A stretch of DNA of 64,000 bases from Alphaproteobacteria bacterium UBA6324 (GTDB taxonomy: Bacteria; Pseudomonadota; Alphaproteobacteria; CAAGCB01; CAG-977): contig DJSW01000007.1 of NCBI GenBank assembly GCA_002439085.1, forward strand, positions 26,371-90,370, written 5' to 3'. A program made the position numbers and the translations under genes. Each line of letters starts with the position of its first letter. Within the stretch, counting starts at the first letter, position 1. Positions 5,436 through 46,280 of this stretch are shown piece after piece. The notes beneath the pieces are model-generated. The model saw only the letters and a list, made by a program, of their open reading frames with translations. It made no database searches and was not told the DNA's origin.

Positions 5436-5522
5436 GATCAAAAAAGCTCCCTTAAATCGGATTTGGTGTAGTATAGTGGACAAAGATTAACAAAATTCAA
5501 ACATTTGCAGGACTTCGCCCCC

Positions 5523-6947
5523 ATGGAAATACTGACCGCCGGACAAATGCGCGACGCCGACAAGGAAACCGTTGCAAATATCATGCCGGAATTGCAGCTG
5601 ATGGAAAACGCGGGGTTCGCCGCCGCGTGTCAAATCGCGCGCAGATACGGCAAGCGCCCCGTCACCGTTTTGTGCGGCGCGGGCAACAACGGCGGGGACG
5701 GGTTCGTCGTCGCCCGATTGTTGCGGCAGCGCGGCTGGCCCGTCGAAGTCGTTTTCACCGGCGACGAACAAAAAATGACACCCGCCGCGGCCGCAAACGC
5801 CAAAAAATTCAAAGGCGCCGTCCGCCCGTTATCGCTTCAGAGCCTGAAAAGGGCGGAAAAGGACGGCCGTCTGTTCGTGGACGCCGTTTTCGGCACAGGA
5901 CTTTGCCGCCCCGTCACGGGCGATATCGCCGATTTTTTCAACGCGCTGAACGAAACGGCCGCGCCGTGCGTCGCGCTGGACATCCCCGGCGGCGTTTGCG
6001 CCGACACGGGCGAAGTGCTGGGAACCGCCCCGTTCTGCGATATGACGGTCACTTTTTGCCGGCCGAAAATCGGGCATTTTCTCTACCCCGCCAAGGAACG
6101 CGTCGGCGATTTGACCGTCTGCCCGATCGGCATCCCCGACGAAATCGTCGCGCATCAAAATCCGTCCGTTTACGAAAACGCGCCCGATTTGTTTTCCGTA
6201 CCGGCGGCGACGCCCTATGACAACAAATATTCCCGCGGCGCGGTGTTGGTGCGCGCGGGCGAAATGAGCGGAGCCGCCCGATTGGCCGCGGCGGCGGCGC
6301 GGCGCGCGGGCGCGGGATGGGTCGGCGTGTCCTGCGACACTCGATTGCAAAACCTGTTCGCCCTTGACGCGGAAACGGTCGTCCAGCCCGCCGACACCGC
6401 CGAAGCGTTCAAAACGCAGTTGAGCGGCCGCAAAATCTCCGCCACCGTCATCGGTATGGGAATGACGGAAACGCCCCGTGTCAAAGAATTTATGGACATC
6501 CTTTCCGCATCCGGAAAACCGTTCGTCGCCGACGCGGGCGCCCTGCCCTTTATCAAAACCGTCAAAGATCCGTCCCGCGCGATCGTCACGCCGCACGCGG
6601 GCGAATTTTGCCGCCTTTTCCCCGACATAGCCGGAAAAAACAAGTTGGATCAGGCGCGGGCAGCCGCCAAAGCTTTAAATTGCGTCGTCGTGTTAAAGGG
6701 TGCGGACACCGTCATCGCCGCCCCCGACGGCCGCGCGGCGATTAACGCGACAACGGCGTTCAATCTGGCGACGGCGGGCAGCGGCGACGTTTTGGGCGGC
6801 ATCATCGGCGCGATGCTGGCGAAATCTCTCCCCCCGTTTGAATCCGCCTGCGCCGGCGTGTGGCTGCATTCCCGCGCCGCCGAATCCGCCGGACGAGAAA
6901 ACCTGATCGCTTCGGACATTGTTGACGCGCTGGGCGAAATCCGATGA
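5523..6947 (+). CDS. nnr: bifunctional NAD(P)H-hydrate repair enzyme Nnr (epimerase/dehydratase, YjeF family)
   Basis: The N-terminal YjeF-N motif is present (VLCGAGNNGGDGFVVARLL). The C-terminal carbohydrate-kinase-like domain is present (..VLKGADTVIAAPDG..GSGDVLGG..). Confidence 0.85.
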   Translation: MEILTAGQMRDADKETVANIMPELQLMENAGFAAACQIARRYGKRPVTVLCGAGNNGGDGFVVARLLRQRGWPVEVVFTGDEQKMTPAAAANAKKFKGAVRPLSLQSLKRAEKDGRLFVDAVFGTGLCRPVTGDIADFFNALNETAAPCVALDIPGGVCADTGEVLGTAPFCDMTVTFCRPKIGHFLYPAKERVGDLTVCPIGIPDEIVAHQNPSVYENAPDLFSVPAATPYDNKYSRGAVLVRAGEMSGAARLAAAAARRAGAGWVGVSCDTRLQNLFALDAETVVQPADTAEAFKTQLSGRKISATVIGMGMTETPRVKEFMDILSASGKPFVADAGALPFIKTVKDPSRAIVTPHAGEFCRLFPDIAGKNKLDQARAAAKALNCVVVLKGADTVIAAPDGRAAINATTAFNLATAGSGDVLGGIIGAMLAKSLPPFESACAGVWLHSRAAESAGRENLIASDIVDALGEIR

Positions 6948-7423
6948 AGTTTTTGTTTTACCTGCTGCGGCACAAATTTTGGGTGTTTTGGTTTTGCGCG
7001 CACCACGGAATGATTTGGCGCGGGCTGAAGCATGATTGCGACAAACTGCGCCCGTCGCTGTTTTTCACATACGCCCGCAACTTCGCGCTGGCCGAAAAAC
7101 TGCGCGACAAAACGGGGCATTACAGTCCGGCCGCCGTGCCGGACGAATGCCGGATCGCCCTGCTGAACCATTTTCACCGCGCGCGCCACCATTGGCAACA
7201 TTGGATTTTACCGTGCGACACGAAAATCGAACCGCTGGACATGGGTGAAAACGACGTGCGGGAAATGCTGTGCGATTGGGCGGGCGCGGGACGGACGCAG
7301 CGCGGCAAAAACTGGCGGCGCGCCGACGTGCGCGATTTTTTCATAAAAAACAGGGACAAAATGGTTTTGTCCCCGCGCACGATCGAATTGATTGAAAAAA
7401 ATCTGGATTCGATGGGATTTTAA
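6944..7423 (+). CDS. hypothetical protein (His-rich HHG...H.D.DK motif), family not recognised
   Basis: The ATG at 6944 overlaps the nnr stop. The ORF is 159 aa. Its last 80 nt or so are duplicated at 11061-11143. Confidence 0.55.
   Translation: MKFLFYLLRHKFWVFWFCAHHGMIWRGLKHDCDKLRPSLFFTYARNFALAEKLRDKTGHYSPAAVPDECRIALLNHFHRARHHWQHWILPCDTKIEPLDMGENDVREMLCDWAGAGRTQRGKNWRRADVRDFFIKNRDKMVLSPRTIELIEKNLDSMGF
7343..7423. repeat. direct repeat copy 1 (3' end of the 159-aa gene; contains hairpin GGACAAAATGGTTTTGTCC)
   Basis: About 85% identical to 11061-11143 over roughly 81 nt. Begins ATAAAAAACAGGGACAAAATGGTTTTGTCCCCGCGCAC. Confidence 0.7.
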
Positions 7424-7499
7424 CAAGTCCTGCGGTCACACCCGCACAAAAGGCGGGGACACGTTCCCCGCCTTTATATTGTGATGCAATATCCGGAAA

Positions 7500-10400
7500 T
7501 CAGAAATTCACTTTCAGATTCACCATGCCCGTGTGATCGGCGTAATCATTTTTAAAACGCCCTTCGTATTTCAGCGACAATTCGCCGCCGCGTCCGAACG
7601 CGATCGCCAAACCCGCGCCGGCTTCAACGCCGAATCTATCCAAAGGATCGCCTTTGACCCGATATTCGGTCAGATCCGGCAAAACAACCGTCCTGTCATC
7701 GTTATCCTGATTGAAATCATACGTCGCCGCCACTTTCAATTCCGGCGTCACCCCGATGGACGGCGCGAAATTCAAATAGTAGTCGTTGGATAGCTTCGCC
7801 CCGACAACCCCCGTCCAAGTGTTTTGAATCGATTTTTTCAACCTCGCCCCAAGCGCGTCGGTATATGCGTTTTGGCGAATGTTCATGAAACGCAAAGCGG
7901 CTTCCGGACTGAATATGCCGAAATCATACCCGACCGCCATTTGCGCGGAAACGGCGTCGGCCGTATAGTTGCTTTCCATTTCAGTCAAACGCGTTTTTTC
8001 GTCATATCTGGAATGGCCGTAACCGGCGACGGCGTTCACATAGGCTTTGTACGGTTTGTATTCGCCATAAACAAAGTAGGTGTGCGTATCAACGTCGGTC
8101 GCAGCGCGCTGCGTCCCGATATCCGTCGAAGCAAAAGCGTACCCCGCGCCGAATTTAAAGTCGTCCGAAACATTTCCTTCCAACCCCGCCGCAAAGCCGC
8201 CGGTATGGGCGTTGAAACCGTCATTTTTATCAAGCTTTGCATAGTTCATCATGCCTTGCGCCCAAACGGAAACGCGGCCGGATTCAAAATCGCCGCCCGA
8301 ACGCCCGCGGTAACGGCGGGAATAATTGCCGTATCCCGTTCTGCCGCGATAACCGCCGCCCCAATGTTCCGAAAAACCGCCGAAACGGGTTTGAACGACG
8401 TTGATGACGGATTTTGCGGCGTTGGAAGCGGCCGTATTCGCGGATTGCGTCACGTCGGGCGCGACTTCGCGCAAAATCTGCTTTGCCGTTTTTTCATCCG
8501 CCTCGTCCAGCAACGTATTGACGCGATCGACCGTCTTCCGGACTTTTTTATCAAATTTGGAAAAAAGATCGTCTTCGATATCCAGAACCTTCGACGCGTC
8601 GCGTTGCGTTTGCGACACTTTTTCTCCGGCCTTTTCCAAATCTTCAATGACGGCTTCGGACGCCGTCGCCAACCGCAGAATATATAAATTGCCGCCGTCC
8701 CAATCTTGCAAACGTTTGATGTTTTTCGCGTCCTGCGGATCAAAGTACGTTTTGGAAACGGCATAGCGCGATGTCGAATAATCCCCCAAATTAAATCCCG
8801 TTCCGTCCGTAATTTTATACAGCGTCGTCACGTCGCGCGAAACGCCCGACATCCCCAGCTTCAACGTCACATTGCTTGCGGACGTATCAACCTTAATGAT
8901 GGCGGACGTTTTCGCCGCGTCCGTTAAAATGGCCGAAATCGTCCCGCCCGTAATGGTATCGGCTTTCAACGTTCCCGCCCCGATGTCCAAAGTTTTTCCG
9001 GCGGCGATGGTAATGTCCTTGATCACGGCGCCATCGGCGAATTTCAACGTGGCAAGCGAATAGTTATCCGCAAAATTCAACGACGCCGTTCCGGATATCG
9101 TTCCCCGGATGCGGGCGTTTTCATGCTGAAAATTGATTTGCGTTTCTGAAAAATCCGCCTGCGCGTTCAACACGCCGCCCAAATTCAACCGTCCGCCGTT
9201 TTCAAAATGCAGAACGTTCCCGTCGTTCGACCCAACGTTCAAAACCGCGTTTTTGGCAATGTTCAGCGTCGAATTGTCCAATGAAACCGTCCCGCTTCTG
9301 GCGGAAACTTCGTTGTTGCCGTTAACGGCGACCGTCGAATTGGAAACGGTCAGATTTCCCGATTTGAAACTGTCGTTGATCAATCCCGACGTTCCGTTCA
9401 TCGTGACAACGGAATTTTGAACCGTCACGTTTCCGCCCCAATTATCCAAAACGACGTTCATATTGTTGTACGCTTCGTACAATTTTTGTTCCAGATATTT
9501 CCAATCCGGCGTTTTCCCGTTGTCCCAAGCATCTGTGACGTGCTTCATCAAATTCGTAGCCGTACCCGTTTCCGAATCCGGTAAAAGGAAACCAAAAGAA
9601 TAAAACGGATCGTCAACGCTGTTCGGCAAATCGTCGCGTTTTTTCGTCGTCGCGTCCACTTTTTTCAATTCGGACAGAATGATGCCGACCGAATCCGCGA
9701 TTTCGGCTTGCGTCAATTTGTTCCGGACGGCGGAAACATCCTTCCAACAATCTTCAAAGCGGTCAAGCGGGTCGGCATAATCTTTGACCTTGCCGTAATC
9801 GGCGGCGGAAATGCTTTCGGCGAAAAGCCCGATCCCCGCCAACGAATTTCCGTTCAGAACCAAATCGGCGTTATCAAAGTTCGTGCTTGCATCAATCGCC
9901 GATTCTGCATTTGAAAACATAAACGCATTATATTCTTCGTACAAAATTTTATCGCCGAACAAATGTTTGTTATGCAGATGTGTGAAATTTCCCGCAAACG
10001 TGTCTTTGTTCAACGTCGCCTTGCCGGACAACGTTCCGACACTTAAATTTGTTTTTGCCAGAGAAATCCCCCTGTCGCCGGAAATGTTCATTTGCCCCGC
10101 GTGCAAATCGTGGAAATTCTTGCCGGCTTTCAAATTTAAAACCGTTTTATTCGAATCAATGTTCAAATCGTTTGCGGTGCCGCTCCACCACCAATCGACG
10201 CCGTCAAAATTTCCGCCGGACAAATTTAAATTGCTTGTACCGCCCAAAGTGAACGCTCCGCGAAACGTGCCGCCGGTGATTGTCAGATCGCCGACGTTCT
10301 TCTTCTCCTCCGTTGTTGGACTATTGCTTGTAAAAGTCATATCCGTAAAATTCCCGCCGGTGATTTTTAATGAATTGTTGGAATAGATCATGCCATTGTC

Positions 10401-10745
10401 GAATGTGCCGTCGGTAATCGTCACATCTTTGCCGGACAAACTCAAATAAGGTGTTGGCGTTGGATAGTCATAGAATGTTCCGCGGAACGTGCCGCCGGTG
10501 ATTGTCAATGAATTTTCGGCGGATATCATAACGTTGTCGAATGTTCCGCCGGAAACGGTGATGTCGGAGATCGGTTCTTCCGTATCGGCGGGGATTTTTG
10601 TGTCCTTGTAAGTGCCGGAGGATATGTCCAAAGCCCGCGCCGGTGAAACGACCGCAAAAGCCGCCAGATTGATCAAAGCGCATTTAATCAGCACCGCACG
10701 ATACCGGCGCGCCAAAGTTTTCAAAGTCGTTTCGGATTGCTTCAT
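7500..10745 (-). CDS. autotransporter adhesin (beta-helical passenger plus C-terminal autotransporter beta-barrel)
   Basis: Signal peptide MKQSETTLKTLARRYRAVLIKCALINLAAFAVVSPARA. Passenger has repeated TITGGTF/LSGGNF motifs. The C-terminal roughly 280 aa resemble an autotransporter barrel, with the final residue Phe (..GMVNLKVNF). GC is lower than the flanking sequence. Confidence 0.85.
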   Translation of the reverse strand: MKQSETTLKTLARRYRAVLIKCALINLAAFAVVSPARALDISSGTYKDTKIPADTEEPISDITVSGGTFDNVMISAENSLTITGGTFRGTFYDYPTPTPYLSLSGKDVTITDGTFDNGMIYSNNSLKITGGNFTDMTFTSNSPTTEEKKNVGDLTITGGTFRGAFTLGGTSNLNLSGGNFDGVDWWWSGTANDLNIDSNKTVLNLKAGKNFHDLHAGQMNISGDRGISLAKTNLSVGTLSGKATLNKDTFAGNFTHLHNKHLFGDKILYEEYNAFMFSNAESAIDASTNFDNADLVLNGNSLAGIGLFAESISAADYGKVKDYADPLDRFEDCWKDVSAVRNKLTQAEIADSVGIILSELKKVDATTKKRDDLPNSVDDPFYSFGFLLPDSETGTATNLMKHVTDAWDNGKTPDWKYLEQKLYEAYNNMNVVLDNWGGNVTVQNSVVTMNGTSGLINDSFKSGNLTVSNSTVAVNGNNEVSARSGTVSLDNSTLNIAKNAVLNVGSNDGNVLHFENGGRLNLGGVLNAQADFSETQINFQHENARIRGTISGTASLNFADNYSLATLKFADGAVIKDITIAAGKTLDIGAGTLKADTITGGTISAILTDAAKTSAIIKVDTSASNVTLKLGMSGVSRDVTTLYKITDGTGFNLGDYSTSRYAVSKTYFDPQDAKNIKRLQDWDGGNLYILRLATASEAVIEDLEKAGEKVSQTQRDASKVLDIEDDLFSKFDKKVRKTVDRVNTLLDEADEKTAKQILREVAPDVTQSANTAASNAAKSVINVVQTRFGGFSEHWGGGYRGRTGYGNYSRRYRGRSGGDFESGRVSVWAQGMMNYAKLDKNDGFNAHTGGFAAGLEGNVSDDFKFGAGYAFASTDIGTQRAATDVDTHTYFVYGEYKPYKAYVNAVAGYGHSRYDEKTRLTEMESNYTADAVSAQMAVGYDFGIFSPEAALRFMNIRQNAYTDALGARLKKSIQNTWTGVVGAKLSNDYYLNFAPSIGVTPELKVAATYDFNQDNDDRTVVLPDLTEYRVKGDPLDRFGVEAGAGLAIAFGRGGELSLKYEGRFKNDYADHTGMVNLKVNF

Positions 10746-10775
10746 TTTCCCATTCCCTTGCACTGTTAAACAAAA

Positions 10776-10960
10776 ACCGCCTTGGTCAGGCGGTCGGGGA
10801 GTAGAAAAACCATATAGTATCAAATGATCCTTTCGGCCTTTAAACGCCCTCCGTTTTTTCAAGGATAGTGACGGAGCGCGTTCTGAACATACGCCAAAAG
10901 CTCCCCGACCTCCGGTTAAGAGTTCGGGGATATTTTCCGGTTTCACCGTTGGCAAACCGG
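10776..10960 (-). promoter_or_regulatory. structured leader element copy A (P1 helix GGUCGGGGAG/CUCCCCGACC, then terminator hairpin CCGCCUGACCAAGGCGG-UUUUU) about 30 nt upstream of the autotransporter start
   Basis: Homologous to 36690-36870. Contains an inverted repeat, an internal compensatory hairpin, and conserved blocks CGUAUGUUCAGAA and UUUAAAGG. Confidence 0.45.
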
Positions 10961-11060
10961 TTTACGACGCATATCGGCGCCGGATACTATAAGAGGTTTT
11001 CTAGGCCTCCGTGCCCGCTAAGACACAACTGAAAGGATACACAATGACGGGCATATGTTC

Positions 11061-11143
11061 AATAAAAAAAGCGGAGACAAAACGGTTTTGTCCCCGCGCA
11101 CAATCGAATTGATTGAAAAAATCCGGATTCGATCAGGTTTTAA
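11061..11143. repeat. direct repeat copy 2 (degenerate duplicate of the 3' end of the gene at 6944-7423)
   Basis: AATAAAAAAAGCGGAGACAAAACGGTTTTGTCCCCGCGCACAATCGAATTGATTGAAAAAATCCGGATTCGATCAGGTTTTAA, aligned to 7343-7423. Confidence 0.7.
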
Positions 11144-11337
11144 AGCAACTTTTCAAACGCCGATTTTGTCAATTCCTCGACATCTTCGCCCTTGGCGATT
11201 TCGGCGATATAGGCGTTGTCGATTTTGAACGCGCCGTTTTTAAACGCATACGCCGCCCGCGCGCCGTATTCGGTGTATTCAACCTTGACGGGAACGACCC
11301 CGACCTTGAAATAACGTAAAGAAACCTTTTCCATCAC
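11140..11337 (-). CDS. small hypothetical protein (65 aa); candidate antitoxin partner of the upstream RelA/SpoT-domain gene
   Basis: The ATG overlaps the upstream gene's stop (ATGA, 4-nt overlap). No family recognised. Confidence 0.5.
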   Translation of the reverse strand: MMEKVSLRYFKVGVVPVKVEYTEYGARAAYAFKNGAFKIDNAYIAEIAKGEDVEELTKSAFEKLL

Positions 11338-11987
11338 CGTCCCCCGACTTTCGCGTTTTTGGCTTTGATCATCAGCGCGGCGGGCTGCTTGTCCTGTTCG
11401 ATTTTCAGCTTGCGCCCCTTGGTGCGTTTGTTGAACGACAGCGCCGCGTCCATATACAGCCCCTGACAGATTTTTTCGCGCATGGCGATTTCTTTCTGTT
11501 CCGCGACGGTCAACGGCCGGTCTTTGGCTTCGGCCGTGATGGAACGTATTTTTTCATAATGGCGGTGCGTTTCCTTGTCAGCCTGCGCGAAATCGCTCAG
11601 CTGAATCTGCATTTCGACGGCAAAGCCGTTCTTTTCCGGAAAAATGTATTTCAAATCGCGGTATCCGCGTTCGTTGGGCTTGTCCATACGGTCGGCTTCG
11701 CGGATCGGCGTCGTGTATTCCTTGACGGCCTTTTTGATCGCGTCCACCTGTTCCAGCGAATCGCAGATCAGGCGACAGCGCGCCAGATCCTGCAGCTGCG
11801 ACACGTCGCCGCGGTATTTCGCGTTCAATTTTTCTTCGGCGCGTTCGCGGCCTTTCAACGGCGCGGATTTGAATTCGCACCCGAATTGCTTGGCCAGTTT
11901 TTCACCGAAAGCGTCCAAAGAGGGCTTTGCCTCCGCCGCCAGCTTGTACGCTTCGTCCAAAGTTTTGGGAATCTGTCTTTCCACCAT
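11334..11987 (-). CDS. RelA/SpoT-domain nucleotidyltransferase (small alarmone synthetase-like; candidate toxSAS)
   Basis: Synthetase-domain motifs are present: KGRERAEEKL, DLARCRLICDSLEQV (cf. DIAGIRII), NERGYRDLKYIF (cf. NGYRSLH), VEMQIQLSDFAQ (cf. EIQIRT) and HRHYEKIR. The C-terminal tail is basic. Length is 217 aa. Confidence 0.72.
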   Translation of the reverse strand: MVERQIPKTLDEAYKLAAEAKPSLDAFGEKLAKQFGCEFKSAPLKGRERAEEKLNAKYRGDVSQLQDLARCRLICDSLEQVDAIKKAVKEYTTPIREADRMDKPNERGYRDLKYIFPEKNGFAVEMQIQLSDFAQADKETHRHYEKIRSITAEAKDRPLTVAEQKEIAMREKICQGLYMDAALSFNKRTKGRKLKIEQDKQPAALMIKAKNAKVGGR

Positions 11988-12065
11988 TTTTTACCGCCTT
12001 TCGTTCCGCGGAACCTTTTTCACAGCGGAATTATAGCGCGTTTTCACCCGCTTTTCAAGGGGGAG

Positions 12066-13364
12066 TCAGCGTCCGATCCCGACATAGGCGAATCCCTGTT
12101 TCACGGCTTCATCCTTGTCCAGCAGATTGCGCAAATCGACGATCCGCGGCGTTTTCATCACGGATTTCAACCGCGCCAAATCCAGCGATTTGAAATCGAC
12201 CCATTCGGTCAAAACGGCGACGACATCCGCGCCCTTTGCCGCGTCATAAGCGTCGGCGGCGTACTTGATTTTATCACCGACCAGCTTTTTGGCGTTGTCC
12301 ATCGCCTTGGGGTCGAAAGCGGTGATGTCGGCGTCATGTTTCAACAGCGCGCCGACGATTTCCATCGCGGGGCTTTCGCGGCAATCGTCCGTGCCGCCCT
12401 TGAACGCCAATCCCAACACGGCGATTTTCGGTTTTTCGATATCGGCAACCGCGTTCAAAATCCGTTCCGCCATTTGCGTTTTGCGCGCGTCGTTTTGGCG
12501 GATCGTCGTTTCGATCAGCGACATTTCAACGCCGTATCCGCGCGCCATGTACGCCATCGCGTTCGTGTCCTTGGGGAAACACGAACCGCCGTATCCCGGG
12601 CCGGGGTTCAGAAATTTTGCCCCGATGCGCGTGTCCATGCCCATGCCTTTGGCGACCTCGAACACGTCCGCGCCCGATTTTTCGCAGAAATTCGCCATTT
12701 CGTTGATATAGTTGATCTTCATCGCCAAAAAAGCGTTCGACGCGTATTTGATCGTTTCCGACGAACGGCGTTTGACGAACAGCATACGCGCGCGATCCCC
12801 GAACGGCGCGTACAATTCCCTGATGACGGCGGCGGCCTTTTCCGTGTTTGCCCCGACGATGATGCGGTCGGGGTTGAAGAAATCATGCACGGCGAAACCC
12901 TCGCGCAAAAATTCCGGCAGGGAAACCACGTCGAAATCGGCGTCGGGGTTGACTTCGCGGATCATTTGTTCAACAGCGTCGCCCGTGCCGACGGGAACGG
13001 TCGATTTATTGGCGACGACGGTATATCCCGTCAGGTATTTCGCCAATTCGCGCGCGGCGGCGTGAATGTATTTCATGTCGGCTTCCTTGGTCACGGGATG
13101 CGGCGGCGTGCCAACGGCCAGAATGACGACATCGGCGTTTTCCACGCCCTCTTTCATATCGGAAGTGAATTTCAATTTTCCGGAAGCGGCGTTTTTATGG
13201 AACAAATCCTCCAACCCGTCCTCGAACAAAGTGATTTTTCCGGCGCGCAGGGCGTCGATCTTTTCCTTGATCGCGTCAATGCAAACGACATCGTGTCCCA
13301 ATTCGGCCAAACCGACACCAGTCGGCAATCCGACATACCCCGTCCCGACAATTCCGATTTTCAT
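12066..13364 (-). CDS. ugd: UDP-glucose 6-dehydrogenase
   Basis: Begins MKIGIVGTGYVGLPTGVGLAELGHDV.. The full nucleotide-sugar dehydrogenase architecture is present. Confidence 0.9.
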   Translation of the reverse strand: MKIGIVGTGYVGLPTGVGLAELGHDVVCIDAIKEKIDALRAGKITLFEDGLEDLFHKNAASGKLKFTSDMKEGVENADVVILAVGTPPHPVTKEADMKYIHAAARELAKYLTGYTVVANKSTVPVGTGDAVEQMIREVNPDADFDVVSLPEFLREGFAVHDFFNPDRIIVGANTEKAAAVIRELYAPFGDRARMLFVKRRSSETIKYASNAFLAMKINYINEMANFCEKSGADVFEVAKGMGMDTRIGAKFLNPGPGYGGSCFPKDTNAMAYMARGYGVEMSLIETTIRQNDARKTQMAERILNAVADIEKPKIAVLGLAFKGGTDDCRESPAMEIVGALLKHDADITAFDPKAMDNAKKLVGDKIKYAADAYDAAKGADVVAVLTEWVDFKSLDLARLKSVMKTPRIVDLRNLLDKDEAVKQGFAYVGIGR

Positions 13365-35267: not shown

Positions 35268-36677
35268 TCATTTCCACTTTCTTTTCAAAAAAGCGGTGGC
35301 CGGTTTTTCGACATATTTATGAACGAACACGCCCAGCACCCAAGACAGCAAGACCGTCCCCGCTATAACAAAACCGTTGTGTTGTTGCAAAAATGAAAAC
35401 CGTTTGTACCAATGCAGCACGACATCCATTTCCAAAAACCAGTGCGTCATGTAAATAGCAAAGGAACAAGCGGATATTTTCGCAAAAAACGGGCGGTTGA
35501 AAAATCGTGAAACTGCGCCCTGCTTCATACCGAACAACAAAATCAGTCCAGCGAAACAGACGACGGCGAAAATCTTGTTTTCCGGACACGCGCCTTTTAC
35601 AAACACGATGGCGGCGGCATAAAGCGTCAACGCGATTTCCGCAATTGTGCAAAACAATGCGTTCGCCGGTTTTCGTTTTTGAAATGCCAGATAAAGCGAC
35701 GCCGTAAAATACCCCAATCCAATTCCGGCGACACCGCGCAGCAAACGAACGGAAAAAACACCGCCGATCATGCCGTCCCAACCGAAATGGCGACAGGCGG
35801 CATAGGAAAAGAACGTCAGCAACGCGAAAATCAAACGGTTGGATTGGATGTTGCAAATTTTCATCATGTAAAAATAAAACAGGGACACCCAGAACAAAAC
35901 CGCCAAAAACCAGCTTTGCGGCGGCACAACATCATCCGACAATCCCGTGCTTTGCAAAAACAAAACATTTGAAACCACGGGGACAAGCTTGGCTTTCCCC
36001 AAAAAAGCGCACAACAGCAGCAACGGCACGAAATGTATGATTTTCGATTTGGCGAAATCGAACGTCGTTCTGGCCGGATCAAACGTCAACATCATAAAAA
36101 AGCCGGATAAAATGAAAAAGAATTCAACCCCCAGTCAACCTTCGTTAACGATATCCAGTCTTTCCGTCAAATGATAAACGACGATCCCGAACGTGAAAAC
36201 CAAACGCAGAAATTCCATGTTCATCATCGCCGGAACCTTGTCATCAAACGGCCTTACGCCATTCACAACCGTGTGCCACAGGCAAAAATACAAAAATCCC
36301 AGCAGCAGAAAAACTTTAAAATCGAAATGCGCGGCGGGTTTGAACGTTTGCGAAGACAGCGCGCTCATATCGCGAAAAACGCTTTTTTTATCACCGGCGA
36401 TTTTAACGTTTGCGATTTGCGTCCCTGCCGGCGGCGACAAATTCAGCTCCGTCATTTCATCCGCCCATATTCGCGCGGACGCCCTGCCGTTTTTGACTAT
36501 CCGCGCAGACGCGGAACGAACCGTTCCCGCCGCGTCTTTGTATGAAATGGCGATTTTTCCGTTTTCAGCCGTTGTTTCGACCGCGATTTTAAACATCGCG
36601 TCCAAAAACAAACAACGCGTAAAAAACAGCGTCGCCGCCGTCAGAAAAAGGATGAAAAACCTCTTTGATCCGGACAT
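35268..36677 (-). pseudogene. acyltransferase family 3 (OafA-like) gene interrupted by an in-frame TGA (36135-36137), with an N-terminal 130-aa signal-peptide extension
   Basis: ORFs 36135-36677 and 35268-36095 share one frame. Read-through gives ..FLRLVFTFGIVVYHLTERLDIVNEG*LGVEFFFILSGFFM.., the Acyl_transf_3 core. GC is about 45%. Confidence 0.6.
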
Positions 36678-36689
36678 ATTCCCCTCCCG

Positions 36690-36870
36690 TAAAACCGCCT
36701 GAAATCAGGCGGATCGGGGAGTTGAAAATCATACCGTGAAAATGACCGATCGACCTTTAAAGCCGTACGATAAAAAATCGGGGCTTCTGAACATACGTCA
36801 AGCCCTCCCCGATCCATGGGAATCAGGGATATAATGCCGTCCCGCCATATGCGAAACGGATTGTACGGCG
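36690..36870 (-). promoter_or_regulatory. structured leader element copy B (P1 helix GGAUCGGGGAG/CUCCCCGAUCC, then terminator hairpin CCGCCUGAUUUCAGGCGG-UUUU) 15 nt upstream of the RBS and start of the acyltransferase gene
   Basis: Homologous to 10776-10960. Confidence 0.45.
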
Positions 36871-37159
36871 CTTATATCAAACACCGCTCACAGTAAGAGC
36901 TTTCTACGGCTCCGCGCCCGCCAAGGCGCTGTTGCGGACGAACAATTCATCCGCAATTAACGGCAGGTTACGGAATTTTTCGATCAAATGCAATCGCAAA
37001 AACCGCCTGAACCGGCAAGCGAACATATTGTCCGCTTTTTCATTTGACTCGGCGGGCGGGGTTTGTTATGGTTGATTTTGTAATTTTTCAGCAGTCCTGT
37101 TAACGGCTGCAAATCCTGAGGTCACCGTTCGGTGGCCTTAGTTGTATTCGGAGAGTGTC

Positions 37160-44153: not shown

Positions 44154-46280
44154 ATGAATACTTCGACCGAAGAAGACATCAATCCGGCGGAAAACTCGGA
44201 AGACGCTTTGCTGGACACGCTCAGCGCTTCGTTGAAAAAGCTGTTGAACAAAGGAAAAAGTCGCGGTTACATCACCGTTGACGAATTGAACGGCGCCCTG
44301 CCGCCCGAAAAGGAATCGTCCGAACAGATCGAAGACGTCATGGCCATGATTTCCGATATGGGGATCAACCTGATCGAAAACGACGAAACCGAGGAGGAAG
44401 CCACCGAAGCCGCGGAGGACGAGGGGTTCAAACTGGACGAAGTGGAAACGTCGCGCACCGACGACCCCGTCCGGATGTACCTGCGCGAAATGGGCGCGGT
44501 TGAACTGCTGTCCCGCGAAGGCGAAATCGCCATCGCCAAACGCATTGAGGCCGGACGCGATTTGATGATCGGCGGCCTGTGCGAAAGCGCGCTGACGATC
44601 AAAGCGTTGAGCGGTTGGCACAACGCCTTGATTTCCGGCAAAATGCTGTTGCGTGACATTATTGATCTGGACGCCACATACGGTTCCGACGAAGACGGGG
44701 ACACCCCCGCGCTGTCGCTGGCGACTTCGATGCCGTCCGCCGCCGTCATGGCCGAGGAAAGCTCCGCCGCCCGCGAAAAAGCCGCCGCCCCTGAAAAGGA
44801 CGACGATTCCTTTGAAGAAGAGGAAAACGCCGACGATTACGACGACGAAGAGGACAACGAATCCGCCGACGGTGAAAACGACGAGGATTTCGACGATTCC
44901 GACGAATCCGGCGACGACAAGGACGATGAAGGGTTCGACGACGGCATCGACGACGAAGAAGAATCCTCCGACGGTGAAAACGGCGACGACGAAGACGCCG
45001 CCGAAGACGATTCGCCCTCCGTTTCTCTGGCGCAGATGGAACAGTCGCTGATGCCGCAGGTGTTGGAACAGTTCGACCAGATTCTTTCCCTGCACCAGAA
45101 ATTGAAAAAGGTTCAGGATCAGCGGCTGGCGTGCGTCAAATCGGCCAAACCCGTCCCCGCCGCCACCGAAAAGAAATTTGAAAAGATCAAGCAGGAACTG
45201 GTTTCCCTGATGGAGGGGATTCAGCTGAACCCCGTGCGCATCGAAAAACTGGTTGACCAGTTGAACGAATACAACAAACGCCTGATGACTTTGGAAGGCA
45301 AAATGTTGCGCATGGCCGTCAGTTGCCGCATCAAGCGCGAAGATTTTCTGGAAGCGTACAAAACATCCGAATTCGATTCCAACTGGATTCAGAAAACAAC
45401 CGGCAAGGCGTGGAAGACCTTTACGGAAAAATACGCCAAGGAAATCGCCGAAATCCAAAGTGCCGTCGCCGCGATGGCCGAAGAAATCGGAATGCCGATT
45501 TTTGAATACCGCCGCGTTTGTTCCATGGTGAAAAAGGGCGAACAGGAAGCCAGCCGCGCGAAAAAGGAAATGATCGAAGCCAACTTGCGTCTGGTGATTT
45601 CGATCGCGAAAAAATACACCAACCGCGGCCTGCAGTTTTTGGATCTGATTCAGGAAGGCAACATCGGTTTGATGAAAGCGGTGGATAAATTTGAATATCG
45701 CCGCGGATACAAATTTTCGACCTACGCGACGTGGTGGATCCGTCAGGCGATCACGCGTTCGATCGCCGATCAGGCGCGCACGATCCGCATTCCGGTGCAT
45801 ATGATCGAAACGATCAACAAACTGGTGCGCACCAGCCGCCAGATGCTGCACGAAATCGGCCGCGAACCGACGCCAGAAGAATTGGCCGAAAAACTGACCA
45901 TGCCTTTGGAAAAAGTCCGCAAAGTTTTGAAAATCGCCAAAGAACCGATTTCGCTGGAAACCCCCGTCGGCGACGAGGAAGACAGCCATTTGGGCGATTT
46001 TATCGAAGACCGCAACGTCGTCCAGCCTTTGGACGCCGCGATCCAAACCAATCTGCGCCAAACCTGCACGGCAGTGCTGTCCAGTCTGACCCCGCGCGAA
46101 GAACGCGTGTTGCGTATGCGTTTCGGCATCGGCATGAACACCGACCACACGCTGGAAGAGGTCGGACAGCAGTTTTCCGTCACGCGCGAACGCATCCGCC
46201 AGATCGAAGCGAAGGCTTTGCGCAAGCTGAAACACCCCAGCCGGTCGCGCAAACTGCGTTCGTTCTTGGACAACGGTTAA
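44154..46280 (+). CDS. rpoD: RNA polymerase sigma-70 factor RpoD (with acidic non-conserved insert)
   Basis: Regions 1.1 to 4 are present (..[11 protein letters not shown].., ..[31 protein letters not shown]..). Confidence 0.95.

What the first reader, a model, noticed from the sequence alone, without database searches (positions are those of the whole stretch)
7343..11143. Low-GC autotransporter cassette bracketed by 81-bp direct repeats that duplicate the 3' end of the upstream gene
The last 80 nt or so of the 159-aa gene (7343-7423) include a perfect hairpin, GGACAAAAYGGTTTTGTCC, and the stop codon. They recur at about 85% identity at 11061-11143. In the second copy the reading frame is decayed (..KTVLSPRTIELIEKIRIRSGFKATF..), and the TAA overlaps the stop of the small minus-strand ORF as TTAA.

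The 3.6 kb between the repeats holds only the autotransporter adhesin gene plus its structured leader. Its GC is visibly lower (locally 33-53% against about 60% elsewhere).

This pattern fits site-specific integration into the 3' end of a gene, with the gene end regenerated by the insert. A hairpin-targeted insertion of this kind is unusual for a protein-coding target. The acquisition is old or a remnant, since no integrase remains.
Basis: seen in the sequence. Interest (0 to 1): 0.6.

Follow-up and report, generated by a model that had tools for sequence, protein, structure and literature searches.

The report
Adhesin gene insertion with duplicated gene end
A single surface-adhesin gene has been inserted between two genes that face each other, copying the 81 bases they share so both still work; some strains of two related gut bacterial species carry it and others do not, which makes it a clear but fairly ordinary case of gene gain by recombination.

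Summary
An 81-nt segment (7343-7423, the end of a DUF5662 gene) recurs at 11064-11143 at about 88% identity with a 1-nt deletion. Between the copies lies one complete autotransporter (AT) transcription unit. Close relatives (L002, L016; about 94% identical) have the empty site: DUF5662 and the 65-aa/RelA-SpoT-like operon abut with overlapping TTAA stops. So this is a 3.64-kb insertion plus a duplication.

The same insertion sits at the same site in a second species, which also has both occupied and empty alleles.

Copy A's right part travels with the insert. Copy B is the displaced resident gene end.

Three points of the interpretation are not supported:
- Hairpin: on the minus strand it looks like an intrinsic terminator (12-bp stem plus U-tract) of the converging rel-like operon. 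B copies retain it as the rest decays.
- Breakpoints: they differ among alleles. In L012 the foreign tract starts 35-40 nt upstream of the repeat, which fits homologous recombination rather than one att crossover.
- Other evidence: no integrase, no other cargo at this site, no dispersed copies.

Best reading: a homology-anchored insertion-duplication (3' end displacement) spread by homologous recombination. The founding event is unresolved.

Side finding: the AT leader is a recurrent structured RNA motif with no Rfam match.

The parts
5505..6947 (+). nnr (NAD(P)H-hydrate repair enzyme, YjeF_N + Carb_kinase); conserved left flank
   Evidence: Pfam; syntenic in all related loci
6944..7423 (+). 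DUF5662 gene (159 aa), intact; its last 81 nt are repeat copy A
   Evidence: PF18907 E=5e-29 covering profile positions 5-154 of 156; C-terminal tail RDKMVLS..LIEKNLDSMGF conserved in homologues
7343..7423 (+). Repeat copy A. It keeps DUF5662 intact. Its left part is like the resident allele; its right part (7381G, 7393T, GGA codon) is linked to the insert.
7350..7376 (-). Hairpin of copy A read on the minus strand (12-bp stem, then UUUUUAUG): terminator-like, embedded in DUF5662 codons
   Evidence: terminator scan; -16.2 kcal/mol
7424..7499 (.). Insert-specific 3' region of the AT gene. It holds a hairpin GGCGGGGA-CACGT-TCCCCGCC (7452-7472) flanked by an A-run and a T-run, which looks like a bidirectional terminator serving AT and now DUF5662.
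   Evidence: Hairpin read directly from the sequence; the terminator scan did not list it. 100% identical to L010, although the DUF5662 5' part is only 82% identical. Absent from empty sites.
7500..10745 (-). Autotransporter gene (1081 aa): N-terminal signal-like segment, repetitive passenger region, C-terminal beta-barrel
   Evidence: PF03797 at residues 827-1061, E=2e-32; homologues at 70-95% protein identity; internal repeats (D1 and D7)
10746..11025 (-). Structured 5' leader of the AT gene. It ends in a terminator-like hairpin (10795->10775) and an anti-Shine-Dalgarno CUCCCC. It is one instance of a recurrent motif.
   Evidence: z=-4.05
11026..11063 (-). Short spacer between copy B and the leader; possible AT promoter (TTGAAC-17 nt-TATCCT, weak, below the scan threshold)
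   Evidence: Read directly from the sequence; not listed, so tentative
11064..11143 (+). Repeat copy B: the displaced DUF5662 3' end. It is frameshifted as a DUF5662 reading frame. On the minus strand it is the 3' UTR plus terminator of the 65-aa/rel operon.
   Evidence: L012_B is identical to the empty-site tail of L016
11071..11097 (-). Hairpin of copy B on the minus strand (12-bp stem, then UUUUUUUAUU): terminator-like. Two G.U pairs of copy A are G-C pairs here.
   Evidence: (-17.6 kcal/mol)
11140..11337 (-). 65-aa ORF, last gene of the rel-like operon; its stop overlaps the TAA of copy B as TTAA
   Evidence: called as a 63-65-aa gene in all relatives
11334..11987 (-). RelA/SpoT-domain protein (217 aa); right flank
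   Evidence: PF04607
36678..36945 (-). Second copy of the leader motif, upstream of a 180-aa ORF (36135-36677). Not part of the insertion, but it shows the leader is a reusable regulatory module.
   Evidence: z=-5.17

Best explanation
WHAT IT IS. A 3,642-bp insertion (7424-11065) carries one complete transcription unit: short upstream spacer, structured leader, autotransporter CDS and terminator. It sits exactly at the junction of two converging units, DUF5662 (+) and the 65-aa/RelA-SpoT-like operon (-).

In the empty state these two overlap functionally over 81 nt. The last 26 codons of DUF5662 are, on the other strand, the 3' UTR and intrinsic terminator (hairpin plus U-tract) of the rel-like operon, and the stop codons share TTAA. 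The insertion is accompanied by a duplication of exactly this shared segment. Copy A finishes DUF5662. Copy B finishes and terminates the rel-like operon and is free to lose the DUF5662 frame.

HOW IT AROSE AND SPREADS (inferred). Incoming DNA carried a homologous DUF5662 3' end linked to the AT unit. It recombined with the resident tail in a Campbell-type or one-sided homologous event, that is, an insertion-duplication or '3'-end displacement'. This leaves a hybrid A, the cargo, and the displaced resident end B.

Once formed, the occupied allele moved between strains and between two related species by ordinary homologous recombination in the flanks and in the repeats. This gives mosaic A/B copies and a presence/absence polymorphism in both species. 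No dedicated integrase is required.

SHOWN:
- the insertion and the empty sites;
- the duplication limits;
- linkage of A-right variants to the insert;
- B being the resident sequence;
- variable breakpoints;
- cross-species similarity of the insert;
- the hairpin and U-tract, and their retention in decayed B copies.

INFERRED:
- terminator function;
- the nature of the founding event;
- selection as the reason the duplicated unit has exactly these limits.
For: (1) Empty site. Window 1-7423 matches L002 686-8129, and window 11066-21142 matches L002 8051-18129, so one L002 copy aligns to both A and B. The species representative L016 (an uncultured Rhodospirillales MAG) is also empty.

(2) Same insertion, same site. 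It occurs in L012, L098 and L112 (same species) and in L010, L011, L097 and L118 (second species, flanks 70-82% identical). L102 is an empty allele with flanks 98.4-99.5% identical to occupied L010.

(3) The insert has its own history. Window versus L010 by segment:
- DUF5662 5' part: 82%
- repeat A: 94%
- AT 3' region: 100%
- AT beta and middle parts: 92-94%
- other flanking genes: 70-77%

(4) B is the resident end. L012_B is identical to the L016 tail. 7381G and 7393T occur in all four aligned occupied A copies, against A and C in empty sites and in L012_B (win_B has A at the first site but T at the second).

(5) Breakpoints fit homologous recombination. L012 has the L002/L016 haplotype on both flanks. 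Its foreign tract begins between 7300 and 7309, upstream of the repeat, and ends at the left edge of B. A-right is GGA in the window, AGG in L112 and L098, and AAG in L012.

(6) Terminator reading.
- The scan lists both copies as the top minus-strand terminator-like sites.
- Free energies are -14 to -18 kcal/mol.
- The left edge of the repeat is the end of the U-tract.
- L010_B and L097_B keep the hairpin and U-tract while the rest is about 25% diverged with an 11-nt deletion.
- A hairpin with a U-tract at this position is present in 6 of 7 scanned loci where the rel-like operon abuts DUF5662, and in none of 11 without it.

(7) A parallel case with the same topology. In L013 an Abi_2 unit sits between 143-nt repeats made of the last 100 nt of an SMR gene plus its terminator. 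L096 is the empty site. The copy next to the cargo's 5' end carries a different version of the terminator loop.

(8) Negative evidence.
- No recombinase in the insert or within +/-10 kb.
- No match of 7300-11200 in the plasmid or phage collections.
- No viral contig with the hairpin.
Against: - The founding event was not observed. No donor arrangement (AT next to an intact DUF5662 without copy B) was found among the close AT homologues. The only other location is a NUDIX-SMR locus in another species.
- The window's own mosaic (A = resident left plus foreign right; B = foreign left plus resident right, switching near the hairpin) is also what a site-specific crossover at the hairpin would give.
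- In both the AT and the Abi_2 cases the cargo's 5' end is joined directly after a terminator hairpin. This could point to a hairpin-directed mechanism rather than plain homologous recombination.
- Terminator function rests on a consensus scan and comparative retention, not on transcript data. L023 has the rel-like operon but no such hairpin.
- Few informative sites (about 12 in 81 nt) underlie the mosaic analysis.
- For the window species, the empty alleles could be secondary deletions by A x B recombination. Their Arg codon AGG is derived relative to outgroups and is shared with B copies.
Confidence: 0.55

Rival explanations
1. Site-specific integration. A small integrase-less element carries an attP that includes the DUF5662 3' end. 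A tyrosine-type recombinase, supplied in trans or since lost, integrates it by crossing over in the dyad-symmetric hairpin. The 81-nt repeats are attL and attR.
For: - The identity block runs from a dyad-symmetric site to the stop codon, as in elements that target gene or tRNA 3' ends.
- In the window, the switch from resident-like to insert-linked variants falls between the hairpin loop (7362) and 7381 in A, and at the matching place in B.
- The left part of B ('CGGAG') is shared by the window and the second species, so it travels with the cargo.
- The same site is occupied in two species, each also with empty alleles.
Against: - No integrase in the insert or the neighbourhood.
- No other cargo at this tail in 20 related DUF5662 loci, although the DUF5662-udpgdh junction is otherwise variable.
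- L012's foreign tract starts outside the repeat, and the right part of A is mosaic among alleles.
- Nothing in the phage, plasmid or viral collections.
- The hairpin is explained by terminator function, and its perfection follows the presence of the rel-like operon.
- The Abi_2 parallel has no hairpin at the gene-internal edge of its repeat.
Confidence: 0.2
2. Hairpin-associated non-homologous event. The cargo was joined next to the terminator hairpin by replication template switching or by a single-strand hairpin-recognising enzyme. A staggered or slipped repair then generated a long target duplication.
For: In both the AT and the Abi_2 insertions the cargo's 5' end abuts the 3' side of an intrinsic-terminator hairpin or U-tract, and the duplication extends upstream from it. 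The 1,003-nt Abi_2 unit recurs with the same ends in other contexts.
Against: - Only two cases.
- The duplication lengths differ (81 and 143 nt).
- No terminal inverted repeats and no HUH or transposase gene.
- A pure target duplication would make both copies resident-type. Here A-right (AT case) and the terminator loop (Abi_2 case) differ from the resident allele.
Confidence: 0.1
3. Reverse polarity in the window species. The occupied state is ancestral there, and the empty alleles (L002, L016) arose by deletion through recombination between A and B.
For: The empty-site tail ends in ATG AGG TTT (Met-Arg-Phe). This is derived relative to all outgroups (Met-Gly-Phe/Trp/Tyr) and is shared with the B copies, as expected for an A-left/B-right chimera.
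Against: - All 75% relatives are empty.
- In the second species the empty allele L102 has an A-like intact tail. It cannot derive from the decayed L010_B.
- L012_B is undecayed, which argues for a recent arrival in this species.
Confidence: 0.15
4. Copy B is the last remnant of a second, decayed DUF5662 paralogue that once lay upstream of the AT gene.
For: Copy B is a frameshifted fragment of DUF5662 coding sequence.
Against: - Similarity ends abruptly.
- The 317 nt upstream of B shows no residual DNA or protein similarity to the rest of DUF5662. The DNA score is 19 against a null of 18.1 +/- 2.3, and all three reading frames are within the null.
- That interval is instead the AT leader motif.
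- Empty sites have a single gene.
Confidence: 0.03

Closest known systems
Integrative elements that insert into the 3' end of a gene and carry a replacement end (my own knowledge: e14 and phage 21 at icd in E. coli; ICESt1/ICESt3 and their integrase-less CIME derivatives at fda)
   Same: Direct repeats that include the target gene's 3' end. The gene stays intact through an insert-linked copy. The displaced resident end is left as a pseudo-fragment. Empty sites exist in relatives.
   Different: No integrase and no att arm-type organisation. The cargo is a single transcription unit. Breakpoints vary and extend outside the repeat. No other elements use the site. The 'core' dyad is better explained as a terminator.
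C-terminal (3'-end) displacement by homology-anchored insertion, as proposed for Rhs, CDI and T6SS effector-immunity arrays via homology-facilitated illegitimate recombination (PMC5361080 and the references it cites)
   Same: Incoming DNA is anchored by homology in the resident gene. It brings a new 3' end plus linked downstream gene(s) and pushes the old 3' end downstream as an orphan.
   Different: Here the two ends are near-identical homologues rather than alternative toxin tips. There is no toxin-immunity logic. The orphan is retained for a function on the opposite strand (terminator).
Insertion-duplication (Campbell-type) integration, and duplications triggered by transformation (PMC3784515 for duplication by alternative pairing of a partly repeated donor fragment)
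   Same: The topology is homologous segment, cargo, homologous segment. It depends on host homologous recombination only.
   Different: This is a natural, small (81-nt anchor) and evolutionarily retained event. Whether the donor was circular or linear is unknown.
Minimal mobile elements of Neisseria (my own knowledge: cassettes exchanged between conserved flanking genes by homologous recombination)
   Same: One-gene accessory unit between conserved genes. Presence/absence and allele exchange occur through the flanks, including across species.
   Different: Minimal mobile elements are not bounded by duplications of a flanking gene's end.
Integron gene cassettes
   Same: A single gene bounded by imperfect-palindrome-containing repeats.
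   Different: The cassette has its own long leader and so is not promoterless. The repeat is resident coding sequence. No IntI or attI was seen nearby. The hairpin is a simple perfect stem with a U-tract.

Membership tests
Site-specific integrative element at a gene 3' end | Direct repeats (attL/attR) containing the 3' end of the target gene, with a single copy at empty sites | tested here: met
Site-specific integrative element at a gene 3' end | Integrase (and usually excisionase) gene inside the element next to an att site | tested here: not met
   The insert holds only the AT ORF. No recombinase family among the genes within +/-10 kb.
Site-specific integrative element at a gene 3' end | One fixed crossover position within the repeat | tested here: inconclusive
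   The window fits a switch near the hairpin. L012 switches 35-40 nt upstream of the repeat, and L112 and L098 are mosaic in A-right. Secondary recombination cannot be excluded.
Site-specific integrative element at a gene 3' end | Excision to a circle and reintegration | not testable with these tools
   Needs read-level or experimental data.
3'-end displacement / homology-anchored insertion | The foreign tract begins inside the resident gene in homologous sequence | tested here: met
   L012 carries the L002/L016 haplotype up to 7300; private variants start at 7309.
3'-end displacement / homology-anchored insertion | The displaced resident 3' end is retained downstream of the cargo | tested here: met
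   L012_B is identical to the L016 empty-site tail. The right part of the window's copy B shares ACA and AGG with empty sites.
3'-end displacement / homology-anchored insertion | Illegitimate or circle junction at the far end of the incoming DNA | tested here: inconclusive
   Homology breaks sharply at 11063/11064, but no donor arrangement was found to define the junction.
REP / MITE-like dispersed repeat | Many copies at unrelated loci of the same genomes | tested here: not met
   Two copies in the window. In about 0.5 Mb of related loci it occurs only at this site. The metagenome hits outside this locus are 15 copies of one unrelated repeat family plus one isolated contig (L106), sharing only the 21-nt core.
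Transposon with target-site duplication | Terminal inverted repeats, a transposase, and a short fixed-length duplication | tested here: not met
   No inverted repeat between the insert ends. No transposase. The duplication is 81 nt, and A-right is not resident-type.
Integron cassette | Promoterless ORF with attC, next to intI/attI or in a cassette array | tested here: not met
   The cargo has a 280-nt leader that recurs upstream of other genes. There is no array and no integrase nearby. The rest of the genome was not examined.
Type Va autotransporter | C-terminal beta-barrel translocator domain preceded by a passenger region and an N-terminal signal | tested here: met
   PF03797 at residues 827-1061 of 1081. 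The signal-like N-terminus and the passenger repeats were read from the translation and; no signal-peptide predictor was run.
Intrinsic (Rho-independent) terminator | GC-containing stem-loop followed directly by a U-tract at the end of a transcription unit | tested here: met
   Actual termination is not testable here.

The most novel reading that the evidence does not exclude
Single transcription units such as this autotransporter, and the Abi_2 unit seen in L013, could be a class of integrase-less mobile cassettes in gut and rumen Alphaproteobacteria. On this reading they insert immediately 3' of intrinsic-terminator hairpins and duplicate the upstream 3' segment. They would use a hairpin-directed or trans-acting recombination system not yet described. 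The 81-nt hybrid repeat would be their attachment site.
Probability: 0.1. Interest if true: 0.75.

Novelty: new member of a known kind. Interest (0 to 1): 0.4.

Why it matters
- It is a well-resolved natural example of how one accessory gene can be added between two converging genes whose functional ends overlap. The shared 81 nt (coding tail on one strand, terminator on the other) is duplicated, so neither neighbour is damaged.
- It shows that an 'att-like' repeat with a hairpin need not mean an integrase. Annotators of genomic islets should check the opposite strand for terminators, and should check populations for variable breakpoints.
- The adhesin allele is shared and reshuffled between two uncultured gut/rumen Alphaproteobacteria species. 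This bears on surface-antigen variation in these poorly known organisms.
- The leader motif, if it is a real regulatory RNA, would be a handle on how these bacteria control surface proteins.

Tried and rejected
- **Rfam on the whole window and, at permissive threshold, on 10600-11300.** Nothing credible. The leader is not a known family.
- **tRNA/tmRNA scan.** None found, so this is not a tRNA-type target.
- **Decayed second DUF5662 paralogue.** Rejected: no residual similarity.
- **Dispersed REP element.** Rejected. Fifteen metagenome hits turned out to be one unrelated repeat family sharing only the 21-nt core.
- **Plasmid or phage origin.** No match.
- **Donor arrangement for the AT gene.** Look-ups of six close homologues gave only this site or a NUDIX-SMR locus.
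- **Donor arrangement for Abi_2 (SMR natively followed by Abi_2).** Not found. Abi_2 sits in other contexts instead.
- **Short direct repeat around the AT unit at the NUDIX-SMR site.** Only a 10-nt match (TTTTCCCGCC) read by eye. It is too weak to use.
- **Sigma-70 promoter for AT in the 38-nt spacer.** Only 8 of 12 matches, below the scan threshold, so left as tentative.
- **NCBIfam.** No names for DUF5662, the 65-aa protein, the rel-like protein or the AT.

Full report
**1. Observation**

The repeat is real. Copy A is 7343/7345-7423 and copy B is 11064/11066-11143. They match at 87% over 79 nt, with one 1-nt deletion in an A-run of B, and the similarity ends abruptly on both sides.

Each half of the repeat occurs exactly twice in the 64-kb window and essentially never in shuffles. 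No other such pair exists in the window.

Copy A is the last 26 codons plus stop of a 159-aa gene that matches Pfam DUF5662 over its full length. That C-terminal tail is among the best conserved parts of the family.

Copy B is frameshifted. Its TAA overlaps the stop of a 65-aa minus-strand ORF as TTAA.

Between the copies there is only an autotransporter gene (7500-10745, minus strand, PF03797 barrel), a 76-nt 3' region and 317 nt upstream.

The compositional claim holds in direction only:
- GC is 50.3% against 55.8% for the window. This is the lowest 3.6-kb stretch (z about -2.3).
- Tetranucleotide use is the most atypical in the window (z about +3.4).
- GC3 is unremarkable.

**2. It is an insertion, and it is polymorphic**

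Looking up DUF5662 homologues and their contigs gave a 94%-identical relative, L002, in which nnr-DUF5662 is followed directly by the 64-aa/RelA-SpoT operon. The single L002 tail aligns to both A and B. The species representative in the genome collection (L016, an uncultured Rhodospirillales MAG) is likewise empty. So are all relatives at about 75% DUF5662 protein identity.

The insertion is therefore 3,642 bp plus an 81-nt duplication.

Occupied and empty alleles in the two species:

| Species | Occupied | Empty |
|---|---|---|
| Window species | window, L001, L012, L098, L112 | L002, L016 |
| Second species (flanks 70-82% identical) | L010, L011, L097, L118 | L102 |

L102 is 98.4-99.5% identical to L010 in the flanks, yet it is empty. 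Both species thus carry both alleles.

**3. The insert has its own history**

Window versus L010, by segment:

| Segment | Identity |
|---|---|
| DUF5662 5' part | 82% |
| Repeat A | 94% |
| AT 3' region | 100% |
| AT barrel / middle | 92-94% |
| AT N-terminal part | 84% |
| Leader | 70% |
| 65-aa gene | 96% |
| rel gene | 92% |
| Other flanking genes | 70-77% |

Within the window species, the insert of L012 is more diverged from the window (84-93%) than the flanks are (94-96%).

The cassette, and apparently also the rel-like module, has been exchanged between lineages. One boundary of the exchanged tract lies at the start of repeat A.

**4. Which copy is which**

- The empty-site tail of L016 is identical to L012_B.
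- At 7381 and 7393 the four aligned occupied A copies have G and T, while empty sites and L012_B have A and C. win_B has A at the first site but T at the second.
- The window's B-right shares ACA and AGG with empty sites.
- The left part of the window's B ('GCGGAGAC...C') is shared with B of the second species ('CGGAG').

So B-left and A-right travel with the cargo. A-left and B-right are resident.

**5. Why a dedicated att/integrase system is not the best reading**

(a) The insert has no room for a recombinase, and none lies within about 10 kb.

(b) In 20 related DUF5662 loci no other cargo is bounded by this repeat. The DUF5662-udpgdh junction is otherwise variable. Its contents are nothing, a GNAT acetyltransferase, a Cys-rich protein, or the rel-like module.

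(c) L012 has the L002/L016 haplotype on both flanks. Its foreign tract starts between 7300 and 7309, which is 35-40 nt upstream of the repeat, and ends at the left edge of B. A-right is GGA, AGG or AAG in different occupied alleles. Switch points therefore vary.

(d) A resident single copy must be partitioned between the donor's A and B during homologous integration. A matching switch point in A and B, as seen in the window, is therefore expected without any site-specific enzyme (inference).

(e) L010_B is about 25% diverged with an 11-nt deletion, while L010 and the empty L102 differ by about 1%. The occupied allele is thus far older than the strains that carry it, and it moves as an allele.

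(f) Nothing similar occurs in the plasmid, phage or viral collections.

**6. What the hairpin is**

On the minus strand both copies score as the strongest terminator-like sites of the region. Each has a 12-bp stem followed by UUUUU(U)AU, with free energies of -14 to -18 kcal/mol.

The hairpin lies 43 nt downstream of the 65-aa gene's stop. The left edge of the repeat coincides with the end of the U-tract, and the right edge with the shared TTAA. The duplicated unit is therefore exactly the 3' UTR plus terminator of the rel-like operon, which in the empty state is embedded antisense in the last 26 codons of DUF5662.

Supporting evidence:
- B copies keep the hairpin and U-tract even when the rest has decayed (L010_B, L097_B).
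- In the window's B, two G.U pairs have become G-C.
- Across the 18 scanned DUF5662 loci, a hairpin with a U-tract at this position is present in 6 of 7 where the rel-like operon abuts DUF5662, and in none of 11 without it.

Terminator function is inferred, not measured.

This explains why only an insertion that duplicates the 81 nt leaves both neighbours intact. It also explains why B is maintained.

**7. A parallel case**

In L013, which carries a 70%-identical AT at a different locus (NUDIX-AT-SMR), an Abi_2 gene sits between 143-nt direct repeats. These repeats consist of the last 100 nt of the SMR gene plus its terminator hairpin. L096 is the empty site.

The 100 coding nt are identical in both copies. 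The terminator loop next to the cargo differs from the resident version.

The topology is again homologous segment, cargo, homologous segment. The cargo's 5' end is again joined right after a terminator hairpin.

The 1,003-nt Abi_2 unit recurs with the same ends behind HNH and Metallophos-NTPase genes in other genomes. I did not find a donor arrangement for either cargo. The founding mechanism therefore remains open, and a hairpin-directed process cannot be excluded.

**8. Cargo**

The AT is a classical type Va protein. Its upstream 280 nt is a structured leader (z = -4.05).

The leader recurs at window 36678-36945, upstream of a 180-aa ORF (z = -5.17). It also recurs upstream of Cys-rich secreted proteins in L017 and L020 and upstream of all the AT alleles.

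A covariance model found 11 true instances in 459 kb. On that model-fitted alignment 93% of cells pair, and 7 pairs show changes on both sides.

The leader ends in a terminator-like hairpin. A CUCCCC stretch can pair with the ribosome-binding site. GGUCGGGGAG can pair either with an upstream UCCCCGA or with CUCCCCGACC, which overlaps the terminator. This is attenuator-like logic. Rfam has no match.

**9. Verdict**

| Question | Answer |
|---|---|
| Observation | Confirmed |
| Interpretation | Partly supported: insertion and end regeneration yes; hairpin-targeted site-specific integration not supported |
| Best explanation | Homology-anchored insertion-duplication (3'-end displacement) at an overlapping convergent junction, maintained and spread by homologous recombination; confidence 0.55 |
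| Novelty | New member of a known kind |
| Interest | 0.4 |

The embedded-terminator explanation of the repeat limits and the unannotated leader motif are the most useful by-products.

Noticed in passing
window 10746-11025 (-) and 36678-36945 (-); L017 1169-1311 (-), L020 460-602 (-), L013 7828-7978, L010 7829-7976: A conserved, strongly structured leader of about 150-280 nt sits upstream of autotransporters, a 180-aa ORF and Cys-rich secreted proteins. Its core motifs are invariant (TATCCCCGA, GGTCGGGGAG, GGCGTATGTTCAGAA, TTTAAAGGTC, CTCCCCGACCGC). It has a terminal terminator-like hairpin and an anti-SD. No Rfam match. It is a candidate new cis-regulatory RNA.
   Followed up: partly
L013 11126-11268 and 12260-12402 (repeats), 11274-12276 (Abi_2 unit); L096 3040-3270 (empty site): This is a second insertion with the same architecture. 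An Abi_2 gene lies between 143-nt repeats that duplicate the last 100 nt of an SMR gene plus its terminator. The same 1,003-nt unit occurs with identical ends in other contexts (L119-L122, next to HNH and Metallophos-NTPase genes).
   Followed up: partly
window 11140-11987 (-): The RelA/SpoT-domain gene and the overlapping 65-aa gene form an accessory module. It is absent from most 55%-identity DUF5662 loci. It is 92-96% identical between two species whose flanks are 70-82% identical, so it was recently exchanged. It could be a toxin-antitoxin-like small alarmone synthetase pair; this was not tested.
   Followed up: no
L022-L035, region between DUF5662 and udpgdh: The convergent DUF5662/UDP-glucose dehydrogenase junction is a hotspot. 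The gap ranges from 6 nt to 2.2 kb. Its contents are nothing, a GNAT acetyltransferase (L025, L032), a 589-aa Ephrin_rec_like Cys-rich protein (L030), or the rel-like module.
   Followed up: partly
L097 3837-3869 versus L010 11091-11642: One occupied allele of the second species has a 552-nt deletion. It removes the whole DUF5662 gene, copy A and most of the AT terminator region, so DUF5662 is dispensable there.
   Followed up: partly
L003 8934-10004, L009 2173-3207: A Fic-domain gene is inserted between nnr and DUF5662 in the 75% relatives. It is absent from the window.
   Followed up: no
L099, L100, L103-L105, L107-L111, L113-L117: Fifteen metagenome contigs from other, GC-richer organisms carry an unrelated repeat family of about 100 nt. 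It contains the same 21-nt hairpin core (GACAAAACGGTTTTGTCCCCG) in a different conserved context.
   Followed up: no
window 44798-45007: Degenerate tandem repeats rich in GAC/GAA/GAG triplets; possibly a repetitive acidic stretch if translated in that frame. The frame and strand were not checked.
   Followed up: no
L023 14565-14869 and 15219-15523: A 305-nt direct repeat (89.5% identity, spacing 654 nt) at the end of the locus. Its nature was not examined.
   Followed up: no
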